Origin: an uncultured Trueperaceae bacterium | GTDB lineage: Bacteria; Deinococcota; Deinococci; Deinococcales; Trueperaceae | Length of the DNA stretch: 64,000 nt | Direction of reading: 5' to 3' | NCBI GenBank assembly: GCA_963799485.1 | Contig: CAWCXJ010000005.1 | Span: 96,001-160,000 of the forward strand | Part shown: piece by piece, positions 784 through 64,000 of the stretch | Position numbering within the stretch: the first letter of the stretch is position 1 | Layout of the letters: the number at the start of each line of letters is the position of its first letter | Translations under genes and position numbers: made by a program | Notes under the pieces: generated by a model | Database searches by the model: none | Told to the model about the DNA's origin: nothing | What the model saw: the letters and a program-made list of their open reading frames with translations, nothing else

Positions 784-1793
784 TGCCCGCTGATTTCGGT
801 TATATCAACGCCCGCGTGCGCGGCCTTAAAGCCAGGCTTTTAGGCGACGAGTTCTACGCCGCCGCACTCGGCGATTCGGACTTCGGCGCGTTTTTGAGCA
901 GCTTTTCGCAGACTGCTTATGCGCGCGAGGCCGATGAAGCGCAGGCGCGTTACGGCAGCGACCTGCGCGCGGTAGACGACGCGCTCGCCCGCAACTTTTA
1001 CACGACGACCCGGACGCTCCTAAACGTCTCGGACGGGCTTCCGGAGCGGCTCTTAAGACTGCTGCTCTTGCGCTACGACCTCGGCAACCTCAAGACGATT
1101 GCGCGCGCTAAAAGTGCGGGCCGCGAACCTGACGAGGTGCAGGCGGGGTTGTTGCCCGCCGGCGAACTCAAACCGGCGGTTTTAGAGTCCATTGCGCAGG
1201 CGAGCGATTTGCCGGCGGCGGCGCAGGCGGTCGCCGTAACCGGGCATCCGCTCGGGGGCGCTTTTACCCGCGCGGTCGCCAAGTTCACTTCGGACAATGA
1301 TTTGTACGACCTCGAGCTGACCCTAGACCGCGCTTACTACGAAGCGCTCAGTGAAGAGGTGGCGAAGGGCGGTTTTCCCAAAGACTTCGCCCGCTACGTT
1401 CAGCGTGAAATCGACGCGACGAACATCCGCACGGCGCTTAAACTGCGCGGCGCGGAAGATGCCGACGCCGACGCCCTGTTCATCAAGGGGGGTAAAGAGG
1501 TGCGGCGCACGACCTTTGATACGCTCCTGACCGGCGACTTACAGGCGCTCGCGAGTACAACCTTCGCCGAAGTCGCCGAAACCGACGACCTGAGCCGCGC
1601 CGAAGAGATCTTACGCGAAAGTCTCGACGCACAGGCCCGCAAATTGGCGCTCCGCGACCCGCTCGGCGTCGGCGTGATCCTCAACTACTTGCGCCTTAAA
1701 GAAAATGAGACCGCCCGCCTCAGGCTGTTAGCGCGGGGCAAGTTTTACGGCGTCCCCAGAAACCGCTTAGAACAGGAGCTTGGTCGTGCCTAG
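783..1793 (+). CDS. atpC: V/A-type ATP synthase subunit C (d/AC39 family)
   Basis: N-terminal FGYINARVRG, EIDATNIRTALK, operon position. Confidence 0.92.
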   Translation: MPADFGYINARVRGLKARLLGDEFYAAALGDSDFGAFLSSFSQTAYAREADEAQARYGSDLRAVDDALARNFYTTTRTLLNVSDGLPERLLRLLLLRYDLGNLKTIARAKSAGREPDEVQAGLLPAGELKPAVLESIAQASDLPAAAQAVAVTGHPLGGAFTRAVAKFTSDNDLYDLELTLDRAYYEALSEEVAKGGFPKDFARYVQREIDATNIRTALKLRGAEDADADALFIKGGKEVRRTTFDTLLTGDLQALASTTFAEVAETDDLSRAEEILRESLDAQARKLALRDPLGVGVILNYLRLKENETARLRLLARGKFYGVPRNRLEQELGRA

Positions 1794-2115
1794 AATGGTT
1801 ATTTTGACCGACAGCGAAACGGCGACCGGGTTTCGTCTGGCGGGCGTCGAGGTGCGCGAAGCCGACCCGGAAGGCGCGCAGAGTGCGCTCGAGGACTTGA
1901 TCGCGTCGAACGATTTCGGTCTGGTCGCCGTCGATGAGTCGCTCATCGCCGATCCGAACCGCTCGTCGGCGCGCGCCATGCGGGGCCGCGAACTACCGGT
2001 CTTGCTCACTATGCCGAGCCTCGGGGCCGCGTTCGACGAGGAGAGCGGTGACGCCGCCGAGTACATGAAACAGCTCGTCCGCAGCGCGATAGGTTTTGAC
2101 GTCAAGCTCGAGTAA
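1786..2115 (+). CDS. atpF: V/A-type ATP synthase subunit F
   Basis: DSETATGFRLAGV motif and VRSAIGFDVKL end; GTG at 1786 follows an AGGAG RBS. Confidence 0.92.
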   Translation: MPRMVILTDSETATGFRLAGVEVREADPEGAQSALEDLIASNDFGLVAVDESLIADPNRSSARAMRGRELPVLLTMPSLGAAFDEESGDAAEYMKQLVRSAIGFDVKLE

Positions 2116-2185
2116 TTCGTACGCCAACTCCGTGCGGGCAGCCCCGGCGCGGTCTACACTAGAATAGACTACCAAAGGAGGAACT

Positions 2186-3925
2186 GTGGCGATTGAAGGA
2201 AAAGTACAGCGTATCTCCGGCCCGGCGGTTATCGCCGAGGGGATGATGGGCGCGCGGATGTTCGACATCGTGCGCGTCGGTCAAGAAAACTTGATTGGTG
2301 AGATTATTCGCTTGGACGGCGACACGGCCTTCGTCCAGGTTTATGAAGATACCGGCGGTCTGACGATCGGTGAACCGGTCGTTTCGACCGAGCTGCCGCT
2401 CGCCGTCGAACTCGGGCCGGGGATGCTCAACGGTATCTTCGACGGGATTCAGCGCCCCCTAGACAAAATCAATGAGGCTTCGGGAACCTATATCGACCGG
2501 GGCATTACCGTCAACTCGCTTTCACGCGAAGCCAAATGGCCTTTTACGCCGACTGCCAAAGTGGGTGACGAGGTGAAAGGCGGTCAGGTTCTCGGGACGG
2601 TACCCGAATTTTCGTTTACCCACAAGATTCTCGTACCGCCGAACAAGTCGGGCAAGCTCAAAACGCTCGCCGACGCCGGGGACTACACCGTAGAAGACGT
2701 AATCGGGACGCTCGAGGACGGCACCGAGCTCCGGCTCTACCACCCGTGGGCCGTGCGCCAACCCCGCCCGGTCGAACAAAAACTCGACCCGGTAACGCCG
2801 TTTCTGACCGGAATGCGGATTTTAGATGTGCTTTTTCCGCTCGCCATGGGCGGCACCGCCGCGATTCCGGGGCCGTTCGGTTCGGGCAAAACCGTGACGC
2901 AGCAGTCGATTGCCAAATACGGCAACGCCGATATCGTCGTCTACGTCGGTTGCGGTGAGCGCGGCAACGAGATGACGGATGTGCTCATCGAGTTTCCGGA
3001 ACTTGAAGACCCGCAGACCGGCAACCCGCTCATGCACCGCACGGTGCTCATTGCCAACACCTCGAATATGCCGGTCGCCGCACGTGAAGCCTCGATCTAT
3101 ACGGGCATCACCTTGGCTGAGTACTTCCGCGATCAGGGCTACGCCGTATCGGTCATGGCCGACTCGACCAGCCGCTGGGCCGAAGCGCTCCGCGAAATCT
3201 CCTCACGACTCGAGGAAATGCCCGCAGAAGAGGGGTATCCGCCGTATCTCGCGTCCCGCCTCGCAGCGTTTTACGAACGCGGGGGCCGCGTCACGACACT
3301 CGCCGGTGAACCGGGCGCGGTGTCGATTATCGGCGCAGTTTCACCTGCCGGGGGGGATTTCTCCGAACCCGTCACGCAGTCGACGCTCCGGATTACGGGC
3401 TGCTTCTGGGCGCTCGACGCGTCCCTGGCGCGCCGCCGCCACTTCCCGGCGATCAACTGGAACCGCTCGTACTCGCTATTTACGGGGATTCTCGAGGACT
3501 GGTACGCCGAAAACGTCGCGCCCGACTTTAGCGAACTCCGCGACCGCGCCGTAACGCTTCTCCAACGCGAAGCTGAACTCCAAGAGGTCGTGCAGCTCGT
3601 CGGCCCGGACGCCCTGCAAGACCAGGAGCGTTTGGTCATCGAAGTGGGCCGGATTTTGCGGCAGGACTTCTTGCAGCAAAACGGCTTCGACCCCGTAGAC
3701 GCGTCGTGTTCGATGCCCAAAGCGTATGGGCTGTTGCAGCTGATGATTACGCTTAACGACCAGGCCCGGCGTGCGCTAGACGGTGGCGCGACCGTCGACG
3801 ACATCCTTAAAAATGAGGTCGTCGAAAAGGTCAGCCGCGCCCGTTATGTGCCCGAAGACGAGTTCGAGGCGTATAAAACGGACACGCTTAAAGAACTCGA
3901 CAACGCCTTTGCGGTTCCCGCGTAA
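2186..3925 (+). CDS. atpA: V/A-type ATP synthase subunit A (catalytic)
   Basis: P-loop [27 protein letters not shown]. Confidence 0.98.
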
Positions 3926-3937
3926 AGGAGGGGAGAC

Positions 3938-5395
<1,458 letters not shown>

Positions 5396-5396
5396 C

Positions 5397-6077: not shown

Positions 6078-6104
6078 CCGTAACTTCAGTGTCTTCCACC
6101 TGTT

Positions 6105-6130
6105 GCAGCCCTGACCTTCAGGGCTGCTTT
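6105..6130 (+). terminator. Intrinsic terminator of the ATPase operon
   Basis: GCAGCCCTGA-CCT-TCAGGGCTGC hairpin followed by TTT. Confidence 0.7.
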
Positions 6131-6373: not shown

Positions 6374-6447
6374 CCTACGTTTTTACGGGTACTATACAGG
6401 AAGCCTTTGTCCGGCCCAACAGCACAACTCATCTAAAGGGAGACACC

Positions 6448-7542: not shown

Positions 7543-9474
7543 GTGGCGACGCGCGCGCGCACGTTACAAACCAAGTCGGAGCGAATACCTTTTTACCGTA
7601 ACGTCAAGGTACTCGGTACGTTGGCACAGGTTATTTTTGTAATCGCGCTTGTTTTGGGTATTTTAGTCATGTACCTTAACGTCACCTCGGCGCTCGAGCG
7701 TTCACGTATCCCCGCAAGTTTCGGCTTTCTGGATTCGCGCGCGGGTATCCCCATCGGGGAGTCGCTGATCACTTACAGCCCCAGCGACACCTTTGCACGG
7801 GCGCTATTAGTCGGCGTCCTCAACACCTTGCGGGTCGCTCTCATCGGCGTCGTTTTGGCAACTTTGCTCGGCATCTTGGTCGGGGTGATGCGGCTTTCAA
7901 GAAACTGGCTGTTGCGTCAGATTGCCCTCGTTTACGTCGAGACCATTCGCAACACGCCGCTTGCGGTGCAACTCGTTTTCTGGTTTTACGCGATTCTTAT
8001 CCCCTTGCCGCCCCTTATCAGTAACCCCGTCGAGCTGCCCTTCGGTGCGTATTTTAGTCAGGTCGGCTTGGCGCTCCCGTGGCTTTATCCGAGCTACAGC
8101 TTTAATGCGTGGTTGCCGTGGTTGGGCGGTGCGCTGGTTCTTTTTATCTTGCTCTACATCGTCCGCCGGATTCAGATACGCCGTTCGGAGCGTCCGGGGA
8201 ACGCGTGGTTGTTGCCGCTCGTGGCAGCTCTGGTCGTCGCCGGGATCGGGTTTCCGCTGGCGTCGCAACCGCTGCCGGCGGGGACGACGACGGACTTTAA
8301 TGCAAGTCGTGGGCGCGGCACGGTTTTTGTCGATGCGAACGGGAACGGCGTTCAGGATACGGGCGAACGCGCGCTCCCTTACGCCAGGGTGCAAATCAGT
8401 GTCCCGGAGGCCATACTCGCAGAAAACACTCAGTCTATCGTCGAGTCGCGGCGGCGGGTACAAAGTGCTTTTCGTTTTGCGGCGTTAAGAGAAAGTCAGT
8501 TCAGCAGCGCCGAGGTGACGTTTGCCAACCCCGAGGCGGCGCAAGGCCTCGCCATTCACTACTTTAACTTTCCTTCGTCCGGTATTATCTACCGTGACCG
8601 TAACGGCAACGGCGAGTACGACGCAGACGAAGAGCGCAACCTCGAGAACCCCAATCAGGGCGGCTTTAACGGGGTTCCTTTACGCCTCGGCGTCGAGGGT
8701 TTTGAAGAGACCCTGACGGCTGATCGCACCGGGCAATTCCGACTGCCACCGTTTCAGTCGCTCGCAGAGCTCGACGCCGCGACTGCTGCTACAGCTGCCT
8801 CGGCAGCTGCGCCCGAAGGTGAAACGGACGGTGCAGCCCCTAGCGACGGGGGAACCTCGAGTCCCGCCGGTCTTTTCGGCGGTGGGGGTAACAGTAGCGC
8901 GGGCGGGGACACCTCGAGCCCTGCCGGTCTTTTCGGCGGTGGGGGCGAAGAAACCACCACCGACGTCCCCGGTATCGACGCGAGCGTCACCATCTTGCCG
9001 AGCGGCCCACTCGTCGCCAGTTTCCCGACCGTCCCGCTGACCAGTTATGAAGGCGGCGTACAGCTCTCTGCCCCGTTTTTGGCTTTGCTGTTGGGGTTGG
9101 TTATCTACACCGCGTCGTTTATCTCTGAAATTGTCCGCGGCGGTATTCAAGCGGTCAACAAAGGCCAGCGCGAGGCGGCCAAATCGGTCGGGCTCAGCGA
9201 CACCCAGACGTTCAACCTGATCGTCTTTCCGCAGGCACTCCGCATCATCTTGCCGCCGCTTTTAAGCCAGTACCTCAACCTCATCAAGAACTCGTCATTG
9301 GCGCTGCTGATTACCTTTATCGACTTTTTTGCTATCGGCCGGATTATCGGCAACCAGACCGGGGCGACGGTGCCGATTATCGTCATCATCATCGGAGGCT
9401 ACCTGCTCGTGAGTTTTATCTTTGCCTTTATCCTTAACGTGGTCAACGCCCGGTTTGCGCTGGTCGAACGGTGA
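7543..9474 (+). CDS. aapQ: Amino-acid ABC permease (AapQ/BztB family) with a large extracytoplasmic insertion
   Basis: GVLNTLRV, YVETIRNTPL, EIVRGGIQAVNKGQREAA (EAA loop), YLNLIKNSSL; about 260 extra residues in the middle. Confidence 0.88.
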   Translation: MATRARTLQTKSERIPFYRNVKVLGTLAQVIFVIALVLGILVMYLNVTSALERSRIPASFGFLDSRAGIPIGESLITYSPSDTFARALLVGVLNTLRVALIGVVLATLLGILVGVMRLSRNWLLRQIALVYVETIRNTPLAVQLVFWFYAILIPLPPLISNPVELPFGAYFSQVGLALPWLYPSYSFNAWLPWLGGALVLFILLYIVRRIQIRRSERPGNAWLLPLVAALVVAGIGFPLASQPLPAGTTTDFNASRGRGTVFVDANGNGVQDTGERALPYARVQISVPEAILAENTQSIVESRRRVQSAFRFAALRESQFSSAEVTFANPEAAQGLAIHYFNFPSSGIIYRDRNGNGEYDADEERNLENPNQGGFNGVPLRLGVEGFEETLTADRTGQFRLPPFQSLAELDAATAATAASAAAPEGETDGAAPSDGGTSSPAGLFGGGGNSSAGGDTSSPAGLFGGGGEETTTDVPGIDASVTILPSGPLVASFPTVPLTSYEGGVQLSAPFLALLLGLVIYTASFISEIVRGGIQAVNKGQREAAKSVGLSDTQTFNLIVFPQALRIILPPLLSQYLNLIKNSSLALLITFIDFFAIGRIIGNQTGATVPIIVIIIGGYLLVSFIFAFILNVVNARFALVER

Positions 9475-10690: not shown

Positions 10691-10700
10691 GAGATTTTGG

Positions 10701-14358: not shown

Positions 14359-15141
14359 GTGCAACTTGTCGCCCTCATCACTCCCGACCACGCGCTCCGC
14401 AACGCTTTAGCGCAGTTTCGTAAACCCGCCCTCGGGGTACTTATGCATCCCGTCACACCGACTGAATTCAGCGCTGTCGCCGGGAGCCTGGCACCGCTCG
14501 AGTTTCGCGGCGCACTCGTTTTAGACGAACACTTTCATGAGGCCGCCTTCCGGGTCGCGCAGCGCTCGTCGCTCGTTGCGCAGGAGACCGGCACCGCCGA
14601 CGCGCTGACCGTTTCCTACGGCGGACTCATCGCCGAATACACGCTCGGGCGGGCTGTGGTAACGGCCTTGCAGAGTAAAGGGTGGGACGCGCGCGGAGCG
14701 CGGGCGGTGGTGGTGGGTTCAGGGCCACTCGCGCGGGCGGTGTGCCGTGAGGTCTCGTCGTTGGGCGCAGCGCATATTACCCTCCTGGCGAGCGACAGCC
14801 CGACCGCCGAACGTACTCTCGGCTCACTTGCAGCAAGCACCGAATGTAGCGCCCGGTCGTACCGCGACCCGCTCATTCCAAGTTACCTGATGCGGGCTGA
14901 CCTGCTCATCCGGCTCGACCCGGCTTTCGACGTGCCGAGCGCCTCGGTCGGGCCGCACCTGAGCGTCGTCGATCTCGCTGCCGAACCGCTCAGTGGGCTT
15001 CGGCAGCAAGCGGCGAGCGTCGGGGCAACTGCAATCGGGCCGCGCGACGTGCAAGCGCAGCAGCTAGCGCTCGGGCTAGAGAATATCCTCGGGGCGCGGG
15101 TCAATGCCGGTGATTTTCTCGGGGTGCTTCATTCGCTTTAG
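14359..15141 (+). CDS. Shikimate dehydrogenase-like Rossmann-fold protein with degenerate catalytic motifs
   Basis: RAVVVGSGPLARAV nucleotide-binding motif and AroE-like layout; TxPxK and NTD motifs not recognisable. Confidence 0.6.
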   Translation: MQLVALITPDHALRNALAQFRKPALGVLMHPVTPTEFSAVAGSLAPLEFRGALVLDEHFHEAAFRVAQRSSLVAQETGTADALTVSYGGLIAEYTLGRAVVTALQSKGWDARGARAVVVGSGPLARAVCREVSSLGAAHITLLASDSPTAERTLGSLAASTECSARSYRDPLIPSYLMRADLLIRLDPAFDVPSASVGPHLSVVDLAAEPLSGLRQQAASVGATAIGPRDVQAQQLALGLENILGARVNAGDFLGVLHSL

Positions 15142-16819: not shown

Positions 16820-17014
16820 ACTCGAGAAGGTGAACGTAGCGAATTGTACAGGTGCCGGGCGCGCGTCAGGTTGGAAAACTGTGACCGTGCAAGCAGACAG
16901 GGACGCCACCAACAACTCCGGGGTGGACGGTGCCGGAGCCGAAACAAGTGAGAACGTTTCTCTGCGTCCCGGCTTGGTCGGCGGCAGCGTCGGCTCGAGG
17001 CGCGCCGTAACCTT

Positions 17015-19243: not shown

Positions 19244-19383
19244 AGCCTCGAGCCCGGTGGCAGTATCTTCGGCGACGGCAGCGCCATTATGATGCACACC
19301 GAGGGCGACGATTACAGCACCGACCCTTCAAGAGCGGCGACCGGCTCGCGTGCGGCGTTATCAAACAGGCGAGCGGCAACTAG
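19244..19383 (+). pseudogene. sodC: C-terminal remnant of a Cu/Zn superoxide dismutase
   Basis: DGSAIMMHTEGDDYSTDPS, then after a frameshift KSGDRLACGVIK*; no N-terminal half. Confidence 0.8.
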
Positions 19384-25306: not shown

Positions 25307-26608
25307 TCACCCCAACAGCCAAGGCCTAGCCAACACCGCAAACCCCAAGAACGACGCAAACCCCAGCACGTCGGTCACCGTCGTCAGGATGATATTCGAC
25401 GACTGCGCCGGGTCTTGCCCGAGCCGCTCCATGATGATAGGAATCCCGGCCCCGGCAACGCCCGCCACGAGCAGATTGACGGTCATGGCTGAGGCGACGA
25501 CAACCCCGAGCGCGACGTTACCGCTAAAAAGCGACGCGGCGAGTCCGGCGACGACGCCGGTCGCCGCGCCGTTGACCGCACCTACGACGCCTTCTTTGAG
25601 CAGCACCTTGCGTGAACGTCCGATGTCTACGTCTTCCAACGCGAGTGAGCGGAGCATGACCGCTTGCGCCTGTGCGCCTGCGTTTCCGCCCTGACCGGCG
25701 ACGACCGGCAGAAAGGCCGCTAAAATCGTAATCTGCGCGATGATGCCGTCGAACGCACCGACGACCGCCGCCGCCAAAAACGCAGTCAGCAGGTTGACCT
25801 GCATCCACGGCAGGCGTTTGCGAATCGAAAACCCCGCTGAGGACGACGCGTGTTCGTCCGAACCGGCCCCGAACATCTTCTGCGCGTCCTCGAAACCCTC
25901 TTCTTGCAGCTCACTAACGAGCTGCGTCGCCAGGATGACCCCGCGCAAGTGCTCTCTTTCATCGACCACCGGCACTGAAAGGAGGTTGCGCTCCAGGAGC
26001 GCGTCACGTACCTCGTCGAGCGGGTCGTCCGCGTAGACGCGCATGACGTCGGCAACCATGACGCGGGAGAGCGGTGTGCGGGGCAGATTAAGCACGAGGT
26101 CGCGCATCAGCAGGACGCCTTTAAGCGCGCGCACCTCGTCGATAACGTAAACGTAGTTGACCTCACGCCCGACGAGCGCGAGGCGGCGCAAACGCGTCAG
26201 CGCGTCGGCAACCGTCGCACCTTCGCGGAGCGCCACGTAGTCGGGCGACATGATGCTGCCGGCGGTGTCTTCTTCGTAGTCGGCGAGTTCCTCCAACTCT
26301 TCGACGTGTGCGCTCGGCAGCCGGTCTAGCAGCGCTTGCCGTTCGCGTTCGGGCAGATATTCGAAGATGTCGTTGGTGTCTTCAAAAGGCAGTTCACGAA
26401 CGAGCTGCGCGGCCTCTTCGGGGGGCAATTCTTGCAACACGCGGGCGGCAAAATCCGGGGAGAACCACTCGAGCACCGGCGCGCGCAGCTCGCTGTCGAA
26501 ATGCGACAACTCTTCTATCACCTCACGGGGCTCGAGCCGTTCTAAGATGCGGGCCGCCTCGAGTGGGTGCGTTTCGATTAAAGCGCGGGCAAGGTCGTCG
26601 CTGATCAT
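25307..26608 (-). CDS. mgtE: Magnesium transporter MgtE
   Basis: MgtE N-domain, CBS pair (TAGSIMS, YVYVID), KRLPW, GGNAGAQ, TTVTDVLG; ATG at 26608 with AGGA RBS. Confidence 0.94.
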   Translation of the reverse strand: MISDDLARALIETHPLEAARILERLEPREVIEELSHFDSELRAPVLEWFSPDFAARVLQELPPEEAAQLVRELPFEDTNDIFEYLPERERQALLDRLPSAHVEELEELADYEEDTAGSIMSPDYVALREGATVADALTRLRRLALVGREVNYVYVIDEVRALKGVLLMRDLVLNLPRTPLSRVMVADVMRVYADDPLDEVRDALLERNLLSVPVVDEREHLRGVILATQLVSELQEEGFEDAQKMFGAGSDEHASSSAGFSIRKRLPWMQVNLLTAFLAAAVVGAFDGIIAQITILAAFLPVVAGQGGNAGAQAQAVMLRSLALEDVDIGRSRKVLLKEGVVGAVNGAATGVVAGLAASLFSGNVALGVVVASAMTVNLLVAGVAGAGIPIIMERLGQDPAQSSNIILTTVTDVLGFASFLGFAVLARPWLLG

Positions 26609-26687
26609 GTTCCTATTGTGACCCACGACCGGCCTTTTAAGGTACCGACGCCGCCAGAACCGTAAATACGCTATGCTACAAAACCGC

Positions 26688-27868
26688 ATGTCCAAACACT
26701 CCGACACCTACGCCCACGCGCTCGAGTGGCTTTTCGCCCAGACCCGGGGCGGTGCCCCGCGCGACGCCGAGCGGATGCGGAGGCTGATGGCGAGCCTGGG
26801 GCTGCGCTCACCTCCAAACGTCGTTCACATCGTCGGCACGAACGGCAAGGGCAGCGTGACGGCGATGCTCGCGGCTGCTTACAGCGCCGCCGGCAAGAAG
26901 ACCGGGCGCTTTATCTCACCGCATGTTGAAAGTTTCCGGGAACGTATCTCGGTTGATGGAACGTGGATTGCTGAAGCTGAGGTTCTAGAATTCGTTCAAA
27001 GCCTGCCCGAACTCGACCCCAAACCGGCGTTCTTCGAGCTGACGCTGGCGTTGGCATTAGCCCATTTTGCCCGTAAAGGGGTCGAGATGGCGATTGTTGA
27101 AGCGGGTGTCGGGGCCAAAAACGATGCAACGCGGACCCTAGACCATGTTCGGGCCCTCATCATCACCAACATCGGACGCGACCATCTAGACACGCTCGGC
27201 CCGACCTTGCGAGACGTTGCCGAAGACAAGGCCGACGCCATCCGGCCCGGTGTTCCGACCTTGACCGGGGCGACCGGCGAAGCGTTAGAACTGATTACCG
27301 GAGTTGCCGCGCGGCGGCGTAGCCCACTTTTTTTCAGAACGCCGCAGAGCCCGCTCTTCCGGTTGCCGGAAGGGTTGGTCCCAAGCACACCGACCGTAAC
27401 GCACAATCAGCAGCTGGCAGCGGCAACGTTGCGGCTACAAGGGGTATCTGAGCCTGCCATCTGTCAAGGACTTAGAGCTTTATTGCCTGCAAGGGCCGAA
27501 CGGTTTTTACTAGGAGACAAAGAGGTTCTGCTCGACGGGGGTCACAACCCGGACGCGGCGCGCGCACTGCTGGAGCACACCCGTCCGCCGTTTGTGCTGC
27601 TTTTTGGCGCACTGCCAAAAAAACTCGGTGCGGAAACACTGGCAGTTTTGGAATCTTACGCCGAGCGCGTCATCCTGACGAACGCCGTACCCGGCGAAAC
27701 GAGTTTGCAGACTGGATTTACGTTTTTTCCGGAACCTGAAACGGCACTTCAGGCAGCTTTGACACTTTGTCAGAAAGTGGGCAGGTCGTGATCGCCGGGT
27801 CGTTTTACCTGGCAGGACAACTTAGACCACTACTTTTAGAAACGACAAATGACCCTTGCTCCGGCTGA
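26688..27868 (+). CDS. folC: Folylpolyglutamate/dihydrofolate synthase with an apparent 1-nt frameshift near 27770
   Basis: HIVGTNGKGS, SPH, EAGVG, LDGGHNP; the C-terminal VVIAGSFYLAG lies in another frame ending at 27868. Confidence 0.88.
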
Positions 27869-31452: not shown

Positions 31453-31560
31453 GCAGTTCCGTTTGTGAAGTAGAGACGCTAAAAATCCGTAGCGATGTTT
31501 TGCAAGCTAAACCGCGACAAGGTCACCGGCTAAAGGATTTGCAGTAGCGTTGCCGAGCCA

Positions 31561-31704
31561 CGCGAGCGGCGCTAAACTTCCGGCGACGGCGCTGGATTGG
31601 GTCGGGGTAACAGGGCGCAGCAGCACGCCCAAAGCAGGTTTGCGAAACTGCGTCAGGGCTTGCCGGAGGGCGTGGTCGGGAGTGATGAGAGTGGCAAGTT
31701 GTAC
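31561..31704 (-). pseudogene. Diverged copy of the first 48 codons of the 14359..15141 gene
   Basis: VQLATLITPDHALRQALTQFRKPALGVLLRPVTPTQSSAVAGSLAPL versus MQLVALITPDHALRNALAQFRKPALGVLMHPVTPTEFSAVAGSLAPL. Confidence 0.9.
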
Positions 31705-41208: not shown

Positions 41209-41415
41209 GTGGCGACTCAACCATCAGCCGGTACCAACAAAGACGAGTTCGGTGAACTGTACAGGCTCGAGCACACCCGATCGTTCACCCCGAAGAGAAC
41301 AGGGCGCGAGGTTTTTGCATAGATATGCGCTCGTTTACTATAACTTTTAAGCGCCTACGGCTAAGACATCAGTCAGTCCCGCTTTTTACTCATTTCGAGA
41401 TTAAGGAAGTTTGAC

Positions 41416-44040
41416 ATGCCCGAACTCGCCAAACAGTACGACCCTTCAAGCGTAGAAGGAAAATGGGTCAAACGCTGGGCTGAAACGCCCTTTACGGCAG
41501 ATGCACAGAGCGAAAAACCCCCCTTTTGCATCGTCATTCCGCCGCCGAACGTGACGGGCAATTTGCACCTCGGTCACGCCTTCGACAATACGCTTATCGA
41601 CACCCTGATCCGTTTCAAGCGGATGAACGGCTTTGAAGCGCTGTTTCAACCCGGTACCGACCACGCGGGTATCTCCACCCAAGTGCAGGTCGAGCGGGCT
41701 CTGCGCGCCGAAGGCAAAACCAAGGAAGACCTGGGCCGTGAGGCGTTTTTAGAGCGCATGTGGGCTTGGAAAGAGCGTTACGGCGATATTATTTTAGGAC
41801 AGCTTCAGCGGTTGGGAGTTTCCGCCGACTGGAGCCGTACCCGTTTTACGCTGGATGAAGGCTTGACCAGAGCGGTGCGTAAACAGTTTGTAGAGCTGTA
41901 TCACCGGGGGCTCATCTACCGGGGTGAGCGCATCGTCAACTGGGACCCGGAGAGCCGGACGACCTTGAGTGACCTCGAGGTCGACCGCGAAGACCGCCCT
42001 GGAGAGCTCTACACGCTTTCTTACGAACTCGGAAACGGCGGCGCGCTTACGGTTGCGACCGTGCGCCCTGAAACGATCTTCGCCGACGTCGCCTTAGCCG
42101 TTCACCCGGATGACGCGCGCTTTACGCATTTGCACGGACAAAAGGCCCGGATTCCGCTCACCGAACGCTGGATACCGATTATCACCGACGAAGCCGTCGA
42201 GATGGATTTCGGTACGGGCGCGCTCAAGATTACGCCCGCGCACGACCCGACCGACTTTGAAATCGGTGAGCGCCACGGCTTGCCGCACCCGAGCGTGATT
42301 GACCTGGACGCCAAGCTGACGGGAGAACTCGTGCCCGAAGCTTTTAGAGGGCTGGACAGGTTCGAGGCCAGAACCGCCGTCGTTACTGCTTTGCAAGAAG
42401 CCGAGAACCTCGTGAACACGCAGGCTTACACGGTTCCGCTCGGGGTGTCGCAACGCACGGGCGTGCCGGTCGAACCGATTCTCTCAACGCAGTGGTTTTT
42501 CAAGATGGGCGAGGTTGCGCCGCGAGTTCTCGCTGCGCTTGGGGCCGGTGAGATGCGCCTTTCCCCCGAGCGCTACACCAAGGTCAACCGCGACTGGCTC
42601 CAAAACCTGCGCGACTGGAACATCTCCCGGCAGCTCTGGTGGGGCCATCAGATTCCGGCGTGGTTTGATGCTGAGGGCAATATCTATGTGCCCGACCCGG
42701 AAAGTCCCGAGCTCGAGCCGCCCGACGACCCGCGTTATGCGGGCATTACGCTGACCCAAGACAGTGATGTGTTCGACACCTGGTTTTCATCGAACCTCTG
42801 GCCTTTTTCAACCCTCGGCTGGCCCGACTTGGAAGACCCGTTTTTTAGGAAGTTTTACCCGACTTCAGCGCTCGTTACGGGCTACGACATTCTGTTTTTT
42901 TGGGTGACGAAAATGCAGTTGGCAAGTTATGCGTTACTGGACGAAAAGCCTTTCTCTGACATCGTGCTGCACGGGCTGGTCTTGGACGAACACGGGCAGA
43001 AGATGTCGAAATCGAAGGGCAACGGGATCGATCCCTTGACCGTGATGGACGCGTTCGGTGCGGACGCGCTGCGGTTTGCGGTGGCGCATACCTCCACAGG
43101 CGGGCAAGACATCCGCTGGGACGCGCGCCGCGTCGAGATGGGCCGTAACTTCAACAACAAGCTCTGGAACGCAGCGCGGTTTGCGATGCTGAATTTTGGC
43201 GACGCTGTCCCTCGAAGGGACGCCGTAAAACCTGAAACCCTCGCCGACCGCTGGATTTTAAGCCGGTTGCAGCACGCTACTCAGGAGGTGACGCGGCACC
43301 TCGGCGCGTTCGATTTGGGCGCGGCGACCCGCGCCGCCTACGAGTTCGTCTGGTCGGAGTTTTGCGACTGGTACTTGGAGGCGGCGAAACCGGAGCTGCG
43401 CGAAGGCAACGCGGTGACCAGAGCGGTTTTGGCTCGCGTCCTAACCGACATCTTGAAGCTGTTGCACCCGCTCATCCCGTTTATTACTTCAGAGCTGTAC
43501 GAAGCGCTAGGTTTTGACGAGCAGTTGGGTTGGGCGTCTTGGCCCCAGGTTGACAAGGCGTTTACAGATTCTAGAGTAGAGCACGATTTTTCTCTCTTAC
43601 AAGCCTCGGTTACGGAGGTGCGAAATCTAAGAGCGAAGGCAAACGTCCCGTTCTCGCAGAGAATTGACGATCTGCTGGTCAAAGGTGACGTTGCTCGCGT
43701 AATCGGTGAGAACAGAAGGGTTTTTGACAGCCTGGCCAACGCTGGTGTTACCTTTGAGGCAAGTGTAAAGCACACGGATAGTGCCGCCCTCACTTCGGCT
43801 TTTACAGGTGGAGATATAACTGTCCCTCTCGAGGGTCTAGTAGACCTGGACGAGTGGCGGGCAAGGCAGGAAAAACGCCTGAAAGAGCTGCAGAATAACC
43901 GTGACAAAAGTGCTAAAAAGCTGTCAAACGCTAAGTTTGTGCAAAACGCGCCCGCTGCGGTCGTCGAAGAAGAAAAACGTCGCCTTGAAGAAGCCGAAGC
44001 GCTGATTGGGGGGCTCGAGGTCAGCTTGCGTGCGCTTTAG
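41416..44040 (+). CDS. valS: Valine--tRNA ligase
   Basis: PPPNVTGNLHLGH, DWNISRQLWWGH, KMSKSKGN, C-terminal coiled coil (KLSNAKFVQNAP). Confidence 0.98.
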   Translation: MPELAKQYDPSSVEGKWVKRWAETPFTADAQSEKPPFCIVIPPPNVTGNLHLGHAFDNTLIDTLIRFKRMNGFEALFQPGTDHAGISTQVQVERALRAEGKTKEDLGREAFLERMWAWKERYGDIILGQLQRLGVSADWSRTRFTLDEGLTRAVRKQFVELYHRGLIYRGERIVNWDPESRTTLSDLEVDREDRPGELYTLSYELGNGGALTVATVRPETIFADVALAVHPDDARFTHLHGQKARIPLTERWIPIITDEAVEMDFGTGALKITPAHDPTDFEIGERHGLPHPSVIDLDAKLTGELVPEAFRGLDRFEARTAVVTALQEAENLVNTQAYTVPLGVSQRTGVPVEPILSTQWFFKMGEVAPRVLAALGAGEMRLSPERYTKVNRDWLQNLRDWNISRQLWWGHQIPAWFDAEGNIYVPDPESPELEPPDDPRYAGITLTQDSDVFDTWFSSNLWPFSTLGWPDLEDPFFRKFYPTSALVTGYDILFFWVTKMQLASYALLDEKPFSDIVLHGLVLDEHGQKMSKSKGNGIDPLTVMDAFGADALRFAVAHTSTGGQDIRWDARRVEMGRNFNNKLWNAARFAMLNFGDAVPRRDAVKPETLADRWILSRLQHATQEVTRHLGAFDLGAATRAAYEFVWSEFCDWYLEAAKPELREGNAVTRAVLARVLTDILKLLHPLIPFITSELYEALGFDEQLGWASWPQVDKAFTDSRVEHDFSLLQASVTEVRNLRAKANVPFSQRIDDLLVKGDVARVIGENRRVFDSLANAGVTFEASVKHTDSAALTSAFTGGDITVPLEGLVDLDEWRARQEKRLKELQNNRDKSAKKLSNAKFVQNAPAAVVEEEKRRLEEAEALIGGLEVSLRAL

Positions 44041-56296: not shown

Positions 56297-56350
56297 GCGC
56301 GTTTTCGACGGCAGCTTGAATGGCGCCGAGCCGAAAACTCTCGAGCCTCT

Positions 56351-58680: not shown

Positions 58681-58790
58681 GAAGTCAGTGTAACGCACCG
58701 CCTGTTTATTCTCTTCACATTCCTCACGTGACGAATCTTACTTCTAGGTGTGCAGCGTTAAAGCACGTCCAACACCCGACAAAGCGGCTT

Positions 58791-59141: not shown

Positions 59142-59395
59142 TTGAGTACCTGGCGTAAAAGCAAATAACGGGTCAGCGCCACCGTTGTCAAAAAACCCAG
59201 GATCGACACGAGCAGCGCTACGTCGAGAAAGCTCTCGAACCCGGTGCGAATAGCCAAAACGACGATCAGAACGGCCAGGTTGACGGTTAAAAAATCGAAG
59301 GCGGTAACGCGGTCGCCCCACGACGGCCCCCGGACGACACGGTAGACGGCGAGTGCCACGGCAATAAGAAGACAGACAAGTGCGACGGTGGTCAT
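59138..59395 (-). CDS. mnhF: Mrp Na+/H+ antiporter subunit F
   Basis: RGPSWGDRVTAFD, GFLTTVA. Confidence 0.92.
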   Translation of the reverse strand: MTTVALVCLLIAVALAVYRVVRGPSWGDRVTAFDFLTVNLAVLIVVLAIRTGFESFLDVALLVSILGFLTTVALTRYLLLRQVLK

Positions 59396-59408
59396 CTAGC
59401 TTCCCTTC

Positions 59409-59873
59409 TCACTTCATAAACCCCAAAATGCGTGTTTCCATCTTTGTCACGCTCTCCCGCGCCTCGTCTACGTCCTTGATGTTGATGGCGTGGGCGTAGA
59501 GCAGCTTGCGGTCGGCCGAGACGCCCATCGCTACCGTTCCCGGCAAAAGCGTGATGGTCGCGCTCAGGAGCGAAATCGCGGCGTCGCTACGCAACCTGAG
59601 CGGTACGGCGATGATGTGCGGATAAAAGACCGGACGGCGGCGCAGTGCGAGGAGCGCAATCAGGATATTTGCCAGCAGCAGCTCCCAGAAAAACGCGCCC
59701 AGATAACGGATAAACGCCCCCAAACGACGCGCAAACGACTCGCCGCCGCCCCGCAACACACTCAACAAAAGTGCCGCCAGCAGGCCACCGACGATTAAAT
59801 TATAGGCGGTCAGCTCACCGACCAGAATAGGCCACAAAAGTGCAAAGAGAAACAAGATGAAGACTTGACTCAC
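59409..59873 (-). CDS. mnhE: Mrp Na+/H+ antiporter subunit E
   Basis: ELLLANI, ITLLPGT, LYAH. Confidence 0.9.
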   Translation of the reverse strand: MSQVFILFLFALLWPILVGELTAYNLIVGGLLAALLLSVLRGGGESFARRLGAFIRYLGAFFWELLLANILIALLALRRRPVFYPHIIAVPLRLRSDAAISLLSATITLLPGTVAMGVSADRKLLYAHAINIKDVDEARESVTKMETRILGFMK

Positions 59874-61417
59874 GGCACCCGCTCCGGTGCTGTCTCCTGT
59901 GCTGCTTTTACTGTTTCTTGCGGCAGAACCCTCGAGATATAAGCCTCAGGCGTTCTCAGCTGCGCCGCAACCCGCTCGGAAAGCGCGTAAACCGGGCCAC
60001 TCGCCACAGCGAGCAGTACGAGCAGCGAACCCGCGACCGCCGTAATCCGCCACATTCCTGTGGGCAACGCGACTTTATGAACGGCGTCCTCGTCCCCCCA
60101 GAAAAAGCCGCGCCAGACGGCGATACCGGCGTAAAGGAGGAGTAACCCGGCGGCAACGGCGACCGTTGCCACGCCGATGCGGAGTGCGCCGCCGGTTTCT
60201 AAAAGCGCCTGAATCAGGGCGAACTTGCCGATAAACCCGCTTGTCGGCGGGAGGCCGGCAAGGGCCAACGCCGCGACAAAATAGACCGCCCCTAAGAGCG
60301 GGTACGCGCCCAGGTGCCCCTCGGTGTGGTCGCCGAAGCGTTCCCCGGCGATGAGTTCAGCAAGTCCGGCGAGCAAAAAGAGGGTAAAAATCACCAGCAC
60401 CGAATGGACGAGGTAGTAGAGCGTCGGGGCCAGTGCGCCGCTCCCGATCCCCATCACCAGATACCCGACCGAGGCGATGTTGGCAAACGCCAGCAGGTGC
60501 CGCCAGCGGCGCTGCGCCACCGCGCCGAGCGCGCCGAACAAGATGGTCAGTCCGGCGAGCAGCAGGAGCGTGTTGCGTAAACCCGTCTCTGCGGGTGTCA
60601 GCAGCGTAAAAAGCCGCAAAAGCGCGTAAACCCCGACTTTGGTCAGCATGGCCCCGAAAAACGCCCCGACTGCACCCGGTACCACCGGGTAGCTGTACGG
60701 CAACCAGAACCCGAACGGGAAGGTGGCAGCTTTGGTGGCGAAGACGAGCGCTAACAGGGCGGCGACGAGCGTCACGCGGGTGTCGCCGGTGACACCCTGC
60801 AAACGCAACGCGATATCGGCAAAATTGAGCGTGCCGAAAAGGCCGTAGGCCAACCCCGCCGCGGCCACGAAGATGGCCGAGGCCACGAGGTTGACGACCA
60901 CGTACTTAAAGCCTTCGCGGAGTTGCGGCAAGGTGCCGCCGATCAGCAGCAGGCCATACGAGGCGATGAGCATCACCTCGAACGAGACGAACAGGTTAAA
61001 GAGGTCGCCGGTTAGAAACGACATGTTGACGCCCATAAACAAAAATTGTAACAGGGCCAGGGTGCCCAGCTTTTCGCGGAGGCCGTTAAGCAGCGGCGAC
61101 GCACCCCGGCGCGGCGCGCGCTTTAGGCTCGAGCCCGCATAAACTGTACTTAAAAGCCCGGTCACCCCCGAAAGCAGCAGCATAATCCCGGTGAGACCGT
61201 CGGCAACCAGGGTAATCCCGTAAGGCGCGGGCCAGCCGCCGAGCTGCGTGACGAGAATCTCACCGGAGAAGCTGAGAACGGCGAGCCAAAGAGACGCGAG
61301 CAGCGTCAGTAACGAGACGATAGCTGAAGCTAAGGCCCTAGCCTGCGGCGTCCTGAGCAGGAGCAGCAGTGCACCCCCGAAAAGGGGCAGCAGTACGGGT
61401 AGCGTCAGGGCGATCAT
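59870..61417 (-). CDS. mnhD: Mrp Na+/H+ antiporter subunit D
   Basis: GGWPAPYGITLVAD, TGDLFNLFVSFEVMLIASY, LTKVGVYA. Confidence 0.94.
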   Translation of the reverse strand: MIALTLPVLLPLFGGALLLLLRTPQARALASAIVSLLTLLASLWLAVLSFSGEILVTQLGGWPAPYGITLVADGLTGIMLLLSGVTGLLSTVYAGSSLKRAPRRGASPLLNGLREKLGTLALLQFLFMGVNMSFLTGDLFNLFVSFEVMLIASYGLLLIGGTLPQLREGFKYVVVNLVASAIFVAAAGLAYGLFGTLNFADIALRLQGVTGDTRVTLVAALLALVFATKAATFPFGFWLPYSYPVVPGAVGAFFGAMLTKVGVYALLRLFTLLTPAETGLRNTLLLLAGLTILFGALGAVAQRRWRHLLAFANIASVGYLVMGIGSGALAPTLYYLVHSVLVIFTLFLLAGLAELIAGERFGDHTEGHLGAYPLLGAVYFVAALALAGLPPTSGFIGKFALIQALLETGGALRIGVATVAVAAGLLLLYAGIAVWRGFFWGDEDAVHKVALPTGMWRITAVAGSLLVLLAVASGPVYALSERVAAQLRTPEAYISRVLPQETVKAAQETAPERVP

Positions 61418-61438
61418 AACGGTATTTTCATAATATTT

Positions 61439-61855
61439 TCATGCGCGTGAGTGCCGCGCGCCCTGAGTTTCCGGCGAGACCGACGGGTGTTCGGGATCGG
61501 CGTAAATACGTTGCGGCGTCGCCGGGTCGGGTTTTTCTAAAAGCTCTTGTACGTGGTCGGTACCGGTCGCCTGAAACGCGCGCATGGCGAGCACCAAAAG
61601 GAGGGAGGTGGTACCGAACCCAATGACGATGGCGGTCAGGATGAGCGCTTGCGGGAGCGGATCGACGTAGGGGCCTTTGAGATTTGTCAGCGGCGGGTCG
61701 CTGAGTCTGCCGCCGGCAACCAGCAAGATCGACAAGTTTGCACCGTAGGCGATCATCGACAACCCGATGATCAGGCGGATCATCGCCCGTGACAAGACCA
61801 GGAACACGCCGGTACCAACCAAAAGTGCTGCGAGTAGCGGCAAAAGCAGCTCCAT
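61439..61855 (-). CDS. mnhC: Mrp Na+/H+ antiporter subunit C
   Basis: DPLPQALILTAIVIGFG. Confidence 0.94.
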   Translation of the reverse strand: MELLLPLLAALLVGTGVFLVLSRAMIRLIIGLSMIAYGANLSILLVAGGRLSDPPLTNLKGPYVDPLPQALILTAIVIGFGTTSLLLVLAMRAFQATGTDHVQELLEKPDPATPQRIYADPEHPSVSPETQGARHSRA

Positions 61856-62328
61856 CAGTCCTCCTGCGCGTCGAGCGGCGCGAGCGTCGTATCGGTATCT
61901 TCGGCTAAAAGTTCGATGATGGTCAAAGTCGTGCCGACCACGACCAAAAAGACCCCGGCGTCAAAGAGCACCGCCGTCGCCCACTCGAACTCACCGATCA
62001 GCGGCCACGTCAGGTAGCCGTAAGCGGACTTCAAAAAGGCTTGTCCGAAGACGAGCGGCACGACGCCGGTGAGGAGCGCTAGCAGCAGCCCCCACGGTAA
62101 GAGGCGTTGCGGCGGCAGGTTCAAAAAGGGCCGGTCGAACACGATTCGCGACAAAAGCGCGGCGACCGCGACGATGAGCCCGGCGATAAACCCGCCCCCC
62201 GGCGCGTTGTGACCCCGCCAAAAGAGGTAAAAGCCTAGAAAAACCAGCACGAACACGACAGGTCGAGCGAAGGTTTGAAAAAACAGCTCGAGCCCGCGTT
62301 TATCGTGTTTATCAGTCATGTTCATCAC
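61855..62328 (-). CDS. mnhB: Mrp Na+/H+ antiporter subunit B
   Basis: GHNAPGGGFIAGL, FDAGVFLVVVG. Confidence 0.94.
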   Translation of the reverse strand: MMNMTDKHDKRGLELFFQTFARPVVFVLVFLGFYLFWRGHNAPGGGFIAGLIVAVAALLSRIVFDRPFLNLPPQRLLPWGLLLALLTGVVPLVFGQAFLKSAYGYLTWPLIGEFEWATAVLFDAGVFLVVVGTTLTIIELLAEDTDTTLAPLDAQED

Positions 62329-64000
62329 GTTCCTTTTCAGACACCGTTTTAACCTTGAGCAGCGCGTAGACGCTCACCCCGACAATCGCCAGCACGGTAA
62401 TCTCGCCGAGTGTGTCGTAACCTCTAAAATCGACTAGAATCACGTTGACGACGTTGTAACCGCCGGCTCCCGCTTTGCTCTCGGTAAGAAAAAACCGCTG
62501 TAACCGTTCGCCGATAGGCGTCTGCACTGCTAACAGCGCCCCAAAGACCGTCAAACCGACTGCGCCGGAAAGCGCAGCGTCGAAAAAAGAAGCGCGCCGC
62601 GAGCGGCGGTAACGGGTCAGTCTGGGCAGGTAGCGAAACACCGAGACGAACAAGATGACGGTCACGGTTTCGATTAGCAGCTGCGTCAGGGCGAGGTCGG
62701 GGGCGCGGAGTGCGACGAACAGCAAAACAAGCGACAACCCGGCCAAACCGGAAAAAATCAGCGCTGAAACCCGCGCCTGGGCAATGATGACGCCGTAGGT
62801 GCTACCCGCGACCAATAAGGCAGCGGCGAGAAACTCGAGCGGTACCGGGCTCAGGTTTTGCGGCAAATACGCGCCTAGACCGACAAAGGCAAACCCCACC
62901 CCGAGCAGCGCGACCGGCAGCCACAACACCCGCAGTTGTGCGGCGAAGGTGGCGTTTTGGGTTCTGGCGGTGGCAAAACGGGCGGTGCGCTCGAGGCCGC
63001 CCATCAGCGCGTAATATACCGTGTTGGCGTTCCACGAGGGTGTCAACACCTCTTGCAGTCGACCGAACGGACCTATGAGCGCAAAAAGCACGATCCCGGC
63101 TCCCCACGTCCAGAACGACAAGATGAGCATCGGATTAAAACCGTGCCAGAGATAGAGCGCTTCGGGTTCGAACCCGAGTGCCGGCGCCGCAAGCGCCACA
63201 ACCGGCGTCGCCAAAGTTGCCTGCCACGGAAAAACGCCGAAAAGCACGACGAGGACGCTCAGCAGCGCAGGTGGTAAGAGCATCCACAGGGGCGCTTCGT
63301 GCACGTTGGGGCGGTGACAGCGGTACGGCCCGACGAATACCCTTAAAAACTTGAGGCTGTACGCAAAAGTCATCACACTGCCGACGACCGCGAGCGCAAT
63401 CGGCAACGTCCCGCTACGCAGCATCTCCTCATAAAACAGCTCTTTGGAGATAAAGCCGCCGAACGGAGGCAGGCCCGCCATCGACAGCGCTGCCGGAACT
63501 GCAATCAGAAACGTCCAGGGTAGTTTGCGGGCAAGCCCCGACAGTTCACGGATGCTGCGGCTGCCCGTTTCGTGGTCGATGCTGCCGACGACCAGAAAGA
63601 GCGCCGCCTTAAACGTGGCGTGGTTTATCAGCTGCGCGGTCGCCGCAAGCGGATAGCCCGCGCCGTAAAGCGCTGTTAAAAGCCCGAGCTGTGAAACCGT
63701 CGAATAAGCCAAAAGTGCCTTGAGGTCGTCTTGTTTAAGCGCCAGATACGAGCCCCAGACCATCGTCACGAGCCCCAGGTAGAGCAGCCCGTCCGACCAT
63801 GCGCTCAGCACGAACAGCGGCGCGAACTTGGCTAAGAGGACGATACCGGCTTTGACCATCGTCGCCGAGTGCAGGTACGCCGAGATCGGCGTGGGCGCTT
63901 CCATGGCAGTCGGCAGCCAGATATAAAAGGGAAACTGCGCCGATTTGGTCAGTGCGGCAAAGAGCAAGAGCGCGAGCGCCGGGACAAACGACGAACTCTG
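62312..64000 (-). CDS. mnhA: Mrp Na+/H+ antiporter subunit A, 5' end beyond the window
   Basis: KSAQFPFYIWLPTAMEAPTPISAYLHSATMVKAG, APDLALTQ, NVILVDFRGYDTLGE. Confidence 0.95.
   Translation of the reverse strand, partial: QSSSFVPALALLLFAALTKSAQFPFYIWLPTAMEAPTPISAYLHSATMVKAGIVLLAKFAPLFVLSAWSDGLLYLGLVTMVWGSYLALKQDDLKALLAYSTVSQLGLLTALYGAGYPLAATAQLINHATFKAALFLVVGSIDHETGSRSIRELSGLARKLPWTFLIAVPAALSMAGLPPFGGFISKELFYEEMLRSGTLPIALAVVGSVMTFAYSLKFLRVFVGPYRCHRPNVHEAPLWMLLPPALLSVLVVLFGVFPWQATLATPVVALAAPALGFEPEALYLWHGFNPMLILSFWTWGAGIVLFALIGPFGRLQEVLTPSWNANTVYYALMGGLERTARFATARTQNATFAAQLRVLWLPVALLGVGFAFVGLGAYLPQNLSPVPLEFLAAALLVAGSTYGVIIAQARVSALIFSGLAGLSLVLLFVALRAPDLALTQLLIETVTVILFVSVFRYLPRLTRYRRSRRASFFDAALSGAVGLTVFGALLAVQTPIGERLQRFFLTESKAGAGGYNVVNVILVDFRGYDTLGEITVLAIVGVSVYALLKVKTVSEKERDEHD

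What the first reader, a model, noticed from the sequence alone, without database searches (positions are those of the whole stretch)
1311..62995. CTCGAG is highly iterated and repeatedly sits at the edges of gene remnants (HIP-like recombination signal?)
Seen: about 100 CTCGAG copies counted by eye, against roughly 20 from a naive base-composition estimate at 60% GC. Many intergenic gaps carry one (22511, 22647, 30514, 35394, 44104, 48629, 54553, 55802, 56845). It coincides with apparent breakpoints: start of the sodC remnant (19247), the point where the diverged copy of the 14359 gene stops matching (14497), both ends of the 16821-16999 segment, the orphan ORF after the T-box (41266), the junction after copZ (56340), the end of the AT-rich valS patch (43828) and both units of the aapQ internal duplication (8856, 8913). 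Established: cyanobacterial HIP1 is an iterated palindrome linked to methyltransferase sites and to deletion events. Inference: an analogous methylation-, repair- or recombination-linked palindrome system is shaping this genome. Caveat: CTC-GAG encodes Leu-Glu, and a frequent word will fall near some junctions by chance.
Basis: partly seen in the sequence, partly recalled or inferred. Interest (0 to 1): 0.7.

Follow-up and report, generated by a model that had tools for sequence, protein, structure and literature searches.

The report
Kept CTCGAG palindrome, not deletion signal
The six-letter palindrome CTCGAG occurs about every 500 bases throughout this Truepera-type genome, is lost about twenty times more slowly than ordinary sequence and is evenly spread, but it does not flank deletions; it is likely a signal read during DNA-break repair, a second-phylum parallel to the unexplained HIP1 word of cyanobacteria.

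Summary
The over-abundance is real: 107 copies in the window and 7,252 in the genome (2.0/kb). It is 3.5-9.8-fold above a codon-aware null in all three frames and 6.8-fold between genes. The deletion reading fails. Against two congeners, 0 of 58 clean deletions and 0 of 836 small indels have the word at both ends. The mild excess at homology edges (44 of 860) is reproduced by a simulation in which the word simply survives decay. Two of nine named junctions are true one-sided edges. Silent losses are about 20-fold rarer than expected, gains about 4-6-fold faster, and sites are more evenly spaced than chance. Across 121 genomes of the order the word is depleted only in the family lacking AddAB. 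Three adenine-methyltransferase families replace one another in 46 of 61 enriched genomes, but this genome's candidate has a stop codon and an enriched cultured relative shows no CTCGAG methylation. Best reading (0.4): a Chi-like stop-and-recombine mark for AddAB, shielded by interchangeable methylases. The scan has reported this word many times, including on other pieces of this genome; the AddAB lead came from one such note. Six searches found no paper on it.

The parts
1311..62995 (.). 107 dispersed CTCGAG sites (61 as Leu-Glu, 21 in frame 2, 3 in frame 1, 22 non-coding); a sample of a genome-wide word, not a local element
19246..19383 (+). 3' remnant of a Cu/Zn superoxide dismutase (sodC) gene; homology to G005 and G001 begins at the CTCGAG at 19247; a true one-sided edge
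56340..56345 (.). CTCGAG at the junction where a thioredoxin/DsbA-like gene is missing (about 740 bp against G005, 941 bp against G001); site at one end only
14497..14502 (.). CTCGAG (Leu-Glu) inside the 14359-15141 gene, conserved and uninterrupted in G005
31552..31704 (-). Partial diverged copy of the 5' end of the 14359 gene; stops matching at the position of 14497, where it reads CTCGCG
41266..41271 (.). CTCGAG inside the 5' remnant of a SAM-methyltransferase gene; homology to G005 continues about 40 bp further, so it is not the edge
43828..43833 (.). CTCGAG encoding Leu-Glu in ValS at the end of a diverged in-frame stretch; no long indel
8856..8918 (.). Two CTCGAG (8856, 8913) inside the two units of an in-frame 'TSSPAGLFGG' duplication in the amino-acid ABC permease; duplication shared with G005
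16821..16999 (.). Intergenic segment with sites at 16821 (absent in G005) and 16994 (shared); no BLAST match for the segment in the fetched stretches

Best explanation
CTCGAG is a genome-wide palindrome that is kept against loss, gained faster than ordinary sequence and evenly spaced, and it is likely the stop-and-recombine (Chi-like) mark of the AddAB break-repair enzyme, likely shielded by interchangeable adenine methyltransferases. Shown: over-abundance independent of codons; silent loss about 20-fold reduced; gain about 4-6-fold raised; repulsion between sites out to several hundred bases; no flanking of deletions; an intact AddAB pair in this genome. Inferred: AddAB resecting a broken end would stop at CTCGAG from either direction. 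A broken copy that has a site would keep it, while a copy lacking it would be resected past that point and re-copied from a sister or incoming copy that has it. This would give one-way conversion (or weak selection) towards the word that fades as sites get closer together. Inferred: the methyltransferases would follow the word, protecting thousands of sites from XhoI-type nucleases, rather than create it.
For: Loss 5 against 119 expected (outer base pair) and 13 against 220 (inner) in 86,363 three-way aligned codons. Glu after a shared CTC: gain 2.07 against 0.34 and loss 0.025 against 0.455, close to a fixation-bias prediction of x4.8 and x0.043. Spacing CV 0.935 against 0.997+-0.009, 0 of 200 permutations as low. 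P(site | Leu-Glu) rises from 0.37 within 30 bp of another site to 0.63 at 500-1000 bp, while controls are nearly flat. AddB and AddA lie adjacent at C7:196127-201071; the best fold hits of a congener's AddB model are B. subtilis-type AddB chains, E 1.7e-26. Of 121 genomes, 60 of the 61 with CTCGAG/CTCGAC >=1.5 carry AddA and all 34 with ratio <0.7 lack it. In genus g23 (inferred Thermus) 20 of 20 genomes keep CTCGAG at 26-343 times CTCGAC although all carry an M.TaqI homologue, so a reader of the full hexamer is implied. Methylation is not needed today: the only solitary candidate here has an in-frame TGA; A. silvanus has 63 sites in 50 kb of plasmid (about 17 expected) and none of its 5 listed motifs is CTCGAG. 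An XhoI-family nuclease occurs in 3 of 41 relatives.
Against: No direct test of AddAB on this word exists. 25 of 85 AddA-positive genomes show no excess over CTCGAC; G133 has AddAB with only 0.29 sites/kb; G097 has no addAB match yet keeps the word. The depleted genomes form one clade, so the association rests on about one evolutionary contrast. All Chi-type words listed in the passages read are non-palindromic, and those authors doubt computational Chi prediction; a perfect palindrome suits a dimeric or methylation-based reader better (inference). Within the family, a methyltransferase separates enriched from non-enriched genomes better than AddA does: 13 of 13 against 7 of 22, kin not independent. 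The AddAB idea came from an earlier AI note, so its recurrence there is no support.
Confidence: 0.4

Rival explanations
1. Methyl-directed repair ratchet (Elhai's HIP model transposed): a methyltransferase marks the strand carrying CTCGAG, mismatch repair treats that strand as template, and new sites are fixed until spacing saturates.
For: The model predicts one-way gain and saturation near one site per kb (passages), matching. Three methyltransferase families overlap in only 1 of 53 carriers, and genus g26 splits 3+6=9 of 9. CTCGAG is m6A-methylated at 94-99.5% by enzymes with no cognate nuclease listed in three cultured relatives.
Against: 15 of 61 enriched genomes carry none of the three families, including all 7 of family f5 at 4-6.5 sites/kb; other families were not surveyed. 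A. silvanus shows no such methylation. Four-fold divergence is flat (about 0.40) with distance from shared sites. No Vsr was found. In g23 every TCGA would be methylated, yet only CTCGAG is kept.
Confidence: 0.2
2. DNA-uptake or self-recognition watermark: transforming DNA carrying (methylated) CTCGAG is taken up or integrated preferentially, which drives the word up.
For: Drive by biased uptake would also give gain, protection and even spacing (inference). HIP1 is reported to raise transformation in a methylation-dependent way (PMC13756078, section 14).
Against: There is no flanking consensus (longer-word maximal-order O/E near 1), and one-off variants are neutral or depleted, unlike known uptake sequences (recalled). 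Competence in Deinococcus without the word is recalled, not tested. Competence genes were not surveyed.
Confidence: 0.2
3. Binding site of an unidentified dimeric chromosome-organising protein, under weak selection for even coverage.
For: A perfect palindrome with uniform density and under-dispersed spacing; a structural role was proposed for HIP1 (PMC5861425 passages).
Against: No candidate protein was identified; kilobase periodicity was not tested; density varies more than 20-fold among relatives.
Confidence: 0.12
4. One reading: CTCGAG is a site-specific deletion or recombination hotspot that generates gene remnants.
For: Two true one-sided edges in the window; 44 of 860 homology edges have a site against 3.0% background, P=0.0005; sharp-cut simulations alone give only 2.6-3.6%.
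Against: 0 of 58 and 0 of 836 indels carry two sites; 95% of edges have no site; gradual decay with shared sites spared gives 5.3%. A site that initiated breaks would tend to be lost, not gained (inference).
Confidence: 0.04
5. By-product of Leu-Glu frequency and codon preference.
For: 61 of 107 window sites are Leu-Glu. In about 20 relatives the word is no commoner than CTCGAC.
Against: Enriched in all frames and between genes; after CTC, Glu is GAG in 96.6% against 35-67% after most other codons tabulated (82% after TTC); highest of 64 palindromes, 57 of which are below expectation.
Confidence: 0.01

Closest known systems
HIP1 (GCGATCGC) and alternate HIPs of cyanobacteria (PMC4390886, PMC5861425, PMC13756078; passages read)
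   Same: Short palindrome at about 2,000 per Mb, inside and between genes, conserved beyond codon needs, with methyltransferases for it in related organisms; function unresolved.
   Different: Different word (6 bp, 67% GC) and phylum; one-off variants depleted rather than enriched at the outer bases; three interchangeable methyltransferase families, and enriched genomes with none found; no deletion signature.
Chi sites of AddAB/RecBCD (list in bioRxiv 10.1101/2021.07.08.451572, passages)
   Same: Frequent short word in a genome with AddAB; would bound resection.
   Different: Palindromic and so without strand polarity; not explained by codon usage, unlike the E. coli and S. aureus cases argued there; no activity shown.
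Orphan CTCGAG methyltransferases (M.Mhy14884I, M.Mru1279II, M.Mch9957IV; Nocardia m5C with Vsr and an origin cluster; PMC4752239 text and tables S3, S4)
   Same: Same motif, methylated in cultured members of this order.
   Different: Here the word is genome-wide with no cluster at dnaA, no Vsr was found, and the solitary candidate enzyme has a stop codon.
DNA uptake sequences of Neisseria and Pasteurellaceae (recalled)
   Same: Frequent, dispersed, consistent with molecular drive.
   Different: Palindromic hexamer with no flank consensus and no excess of near-matches.

Membership tests
HIP (highly iterated palindrome) | Palindrome at about 1,000-2,000 per Mb, top over-represented word | tested here: met
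   7,252 in 3.66 Mb; top hexamer under both Markov nulls; range
HIP (highly iterated palindrome) | Independent of codon and amino-acid use; conserved between genomes | tested here: met
HIP (highly iterated palindrome) | HIP1 sequence, or an alternate HIP of at least 75% GC in a cyanobacterium | tested here: not met
   CTCGAG is 67% GC; relatives are titled Truepera; criterion
HIP (highly iterated palindrome) | Cognate methyltransferase in the same genome | tested here: inconclusive
   Sole solitary candidate has an in-frame TGA and its specificity is inferred only; no reads cover the codon
HIP (highly iterated palindrome) | Kilobase-scale periodicity | not tested
   Only nearest-neighbour spacing was tested; assembly is in 15 contigs
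Chi of AddAB | AddAB present, AddB with helicase-like plus nuclease fold | tested here: met
   (fold from a congener's AddB, 92% identical)
Chi of AddAB | Non-palindromic word polarised with replication | tested here: not met
   Perfect palindrome; the Chi words listed are asymmetric (one noted as orientation-independent in its assay)
Chi of AddAB | Co-distribution with the enzyme | tested here: inconclusive
   60 of 61 enriched genomes have AddA and 0 of 34 depleted do, but 25 of 85 carriers show no excess; one clade contrast
Chi of AddAB | Attenuates AddAB nuclease or stimulates recombination | not testable with these tools
   Needs biochemistry or genetics
Site-specific deletion hotspot | Site at both ends of the lost segment, one copy left at the junction | tested here: not met
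   0 of 58 and 0 of 836
VSP repair target | Vsr gene, and drain limited to T-to-C | tested here: not met
   No PF03852 match; G and T neighbours both drained
Nocardia-type origin CTCGAG cluster | Motif cluster beside dnaA | tested here: not met
   1-6 sites per kb over 14 kb around dnaA, no cluster next to the gene
DNA uptake sequence | Extended consensus and excess of near-matches (recalled) | tested here: not met
DNA uptake sequence | Preferential uptake | not testable with these tools
   Needs a transformation assay

The most novel reading that the evidence does not exclude
CTCGAG is the unidentified Chi of Deinococcales AddAB: a palindromic, two-way resection stop that spreads itself by biased gene conversion among chromosome copies, strongly enough to survive TaqI-driven purging of TCGA and to reach six copies per kb, and that has recruited three unrelated methyltransferases as shields. 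This would give a testable model for HIP1-type words generally.
Probability: 0.3. Interest if true: 0.8.

Novelty: new variant of a known kind. Interest (0 to 1): 0.52.

Why it matters
HIP1 has lacked an agreed function for three decades, and the Thermus AddAB passages read mention Chi only generically, naming no sequence. A second, independent hyper-abundant palindrome in an order with a genetically tractable member lets the repair, methylation and uptake hypotheses be separated by simple allele-conversion and nuclease assays. This report also removes one tempting reading (a deletion signal) with a direct test, and shows that three methyltransferase families replace each other around the word.

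Tried and rejected
Position-specific drive (outer base pair converted preferentially): it fitted an equilibrium model better, but with measured base-change rates and a non-equilibrium model a uniform bias near S=4-5 fits almost as well (deviance 489 against 438), and three-way losses are equally suppressed at outer and inner positions; dropped. Three-way gain rates could not be measured (0 opportunities), so gain rests on pairwise two-state estimates with few non-site pairs. The alignment-end artefact from sharp cuts did not explain the edge excess; gradual decay with shared sites spared did. The excess at ends of internal repeats (21 of 432 against 12.8) comes largely from one IS family with the word in one terminal repeat. 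No single methyltransferase query tracked the word. No lower divergence near sites. No RNA holder listed; contigs laid gave no usable joints and no cover of the methyltransferase stop. No phage of this order was reached through prophage queries. Sequence search of AddB against the PDB was blank. Literature searches for this over-abundance (no papers; 74, 85: listings only, none on topic by title and abstract start; PMC11219805 has the word only in primers) found nothing; the library omits most subscription papers. Genes were called with a home-made model, so 'non-coding' includes some missed genes. Codon-level tests in other families were not done; only counts and a few small loci were available.
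Full report
Observation. The window holds 107 CTCGAG, the top hexamer under both Markov nulls, and the quoted coordinates are right to within a site length. The window is G000:C5:96001-160000. Three congeners' records are titled Truepera sp.. The genome has 7,252 sites, 83-117 per full 50-kb bin, on chromosome-like and prophage-like contigs alike. With genes from a home-made caller, a null that keeps amino acids and codon usage gives O/E 3.45, 9.8 and 4.0 in the three frames, and short intergenic gaps give 6.8. It is the highest of 64 palindromic hexamers, 57 of which are under-represented. Flanks add no consensus. The 16S gene and 43 tRNAs have none.

Breakpoints. I aligned 2.0 Mb of G005 (of about 4.4 Mb) and 0.8 Mb of G001 (of about 4.8 Mb) to the genome; identity was about 80% on the first 1.2 Mb of G005. 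Of 58 clean indels, none has the word at both ends of the lost segment, and 4 have it at the junction against 2.8 expected. Of 836 indels of 9 bp or more inside alignments, 14 have it within 10 bp against 25 expected, and none has two copies. At homology edges there is a real but small excess: 31 of 618 and 14 of 346, or 44 of 860 unique edges, 5.1% against 3.0%. Sharp random cuts do not reproduce this (2.6-3.6%). Gradual decay does when shared sites are spared (5.3%) and not when they decay too (2.9%). That fits the word's higher conservation in non-coding alignments, 46% and 51% against means of 29% and 23%. Of the nine named positions, 19247 and 56340 are true one-sided edges, 14497 is ambiguous, 16994 is a shared site beside a gene start, and the rest are not edges. 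The test is at congener distance; very recent deletions were not seen.

Dynamics. Where both genomes have CTC before Glu, 98.8% of codons are GAG. The two-state estimate gives gain 2.07 and loss 0.025, against 0.34 and 0.455 elsewhere (G001 similar). A fixation bias of S about 4.7 predicts x4.8 and x0.043; observed were x6.2 and x0.055. The gain estimate rests on few non-site pairs. In 86,363 three-way codons silent losses are 5 against 119 expected at the outer pair and 13 against 220 at the inner pair. Sites present in only one of three genomes (490) outnumber sites missing from only one (197), which hints at continuing accumulation. So neither pure protection nor pure conversion fits; selection or biased conversion does, and these data do not separate the two. 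Sites repel each other: CV 0.935 against 0.997+-0.009 in 200 label permutations, with fewer short and fewer long gaps, and the chance that Leu-Glu is written CTCGAG rises with distance from the next site. Divergence at four-fold sites does not change with distance from a shared site.

Distribution. In 121 genomes of the order (at least 90% complete, drawn evenly), family f2 (inferred Deinococcaceae, 34 genomes) is depleted, at 0.01-0.27 sites/kb. Family f5 has 4.3-6.5/kb. In f4, genus g23 (inferred Thermus) keeps CTCGAG at 26-343 times CTCGAC. In the own family 13 of 35 are enriched (ratio >=1.5) and 22 are not. Kin are not independent. AddA at E<1e-40 is found in 85 genomes: 60 of the 61 enriched, 25 without excess, none of the 34 depleted. 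G097 has no addAB match but keeps the word; G133 has both genes and 0.29/kb.

Methyltransferases. Three gamma-type adenine methyltransferase queries were run on the same 121 genomes at E<=1e-40. An M.TaqI homologue is in 22. A family 48% identical to the enzyme beside an XhoI-family nuclease remnant in G002 is in 9. A solitary family is in 23, leaving out one 27%-identity hit in G079. Only 1 of 53 carriers has two; genus g26 splits 3+6; in the own family 13 of 13 enriched against 7 of 22 others carry one. The specificity of the solitary family is therefore inferred, not shown. In all, 46 of 61 enriched genomes carry one; f5 (7) and g39 (2) carry none of the three, and other families there were not resolved. 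In this genome the solitary gene (C6, about 26,000-27,660, minus strand) has an in-frame TGA at a position where G005 and G001 read CTCGAG; whether that is real or an assembly error is open. Published methylomes (PMC4752239, rows of tables S3 and S4 seen) list m6A CTCGAG without a cognate nuclease in Marinithermus hydrothermalis, Meiothermus ruber and M. chliarophilus, but not among the 5 motifs of M. silvanus, whose plasmid pMESIL01 has 63 sites in the first 50 kb against about 17 expected. Which of my three families those named enzymes belong to was not tested directly.

Mechanism. A factor is needed that reads the whole hexamer, favours the site-bearing allele, saturates with density and does not depend on present methylation. 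AddAB is the only tested factor present in nearly all enriched genomes. A resection stop would also bias conversion towards the site and saturate with spacing (inference; multi-copy chromosomes in this phylum are recalled, not checked). Against it stand the palindromic form, the 25 carriers without excess and the single-clade contrast. I put it at 0.4, with a methyl-directed ratchet and an uptake mark at 0.2 each. The statement that the word is a maintained HIP-like signal and not a deletion hotspot is much firmer, about 0.9.

Literature seen: passages of PMC4390886, PMC5861425, PMC11143384, PMC9751324, PMC11555693, PMC11219805 and bioRxiv 10.1101/2021.07.08.451572; abstract and section 14 of PMC13756078; passages and supplementary rows of PMC4752239. 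Supplements of the other papers were not opened and could hold genome-wide word tables. Searches found no description of this over-abundance. The scan itself has noted it repeatedly, in this genome and others.

Verdict. A real HIP-like word in a second phylum, a new variant of a known kind. The breakpoint claim is not supported. Interest 0.52.

Noticed in passing
L035:1483-3140 (G000:C6 about 26,000-27,660, minus): Solitary gamma-type adenine methyltransferase, syntenic in congeners, interrupted here by an in-frame TGA that falls in a position reading CTCGAG in G005 and G001.
   Followed up: partly
L013 (G002:C1 about 1,094,200-1,096,300): XhoI-family nuclease gene split over two frames directly after an intact methyltransferase: a restriction system turned orphan methylase.
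   Followed up: partly
window 31552-31704 (-): By eye, the partial copy of the 14359 gene looks closer to G005's allele than to this genome's own full gene, suggesting replacement by a divergent allele.
   Followed up: no
window 43520-43830: In-frame stretch of valS much more diverged from both congeners than its flanks, possibly a homologous replacement from a distant donor.
   Followed up: partly
G000:C6:592900-593815 and further copies on C2, C7, C12, C15: About 890-bp multicopy IS with terminal inverted repeats; one repeat contains CTCGAG, the other CTCGGG. Family label IS982-like is recalled, not tested.
   Followed up: partly
genome-wide: A second frequent word, GCCGTAAA/TTTACGGC (order-2 O/E 6.7), is biased to the antisense of genes and not conserved above average in non-coding DNA; probably a codon-context effect.
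   Followed up: partly
genome-wide: Near-total avoidance of TTTAAA (O/E about 0.01-0.03) and strong avoidance of GGWCC and GATC; no matching enzyme was sought.
   Followed up: no
genome-wide: GC skew is near zero (within about 0.02 per 100 kb) on all large contigs.
   Followed up: no
G000:C2 and C3: Two related prophage-like regions, each with a cytosine methyltransferase beside a terminase-like gene; CTCGAG density and codon bias close to the chromosome's.
   Followed up: partly
L036:845-1561: In G005 an extra ORF of nuclease-like appearance follows the solitary methyltransferase; it is absent from the G000, G001 and G003 loci. Not searched against families.
   Followed up: no
NC_014753.1:51112-53103: An Oceanithermus plasmid carries a second AddA-like gene, 39% identical to this genome's AddA.
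   Followed up: no
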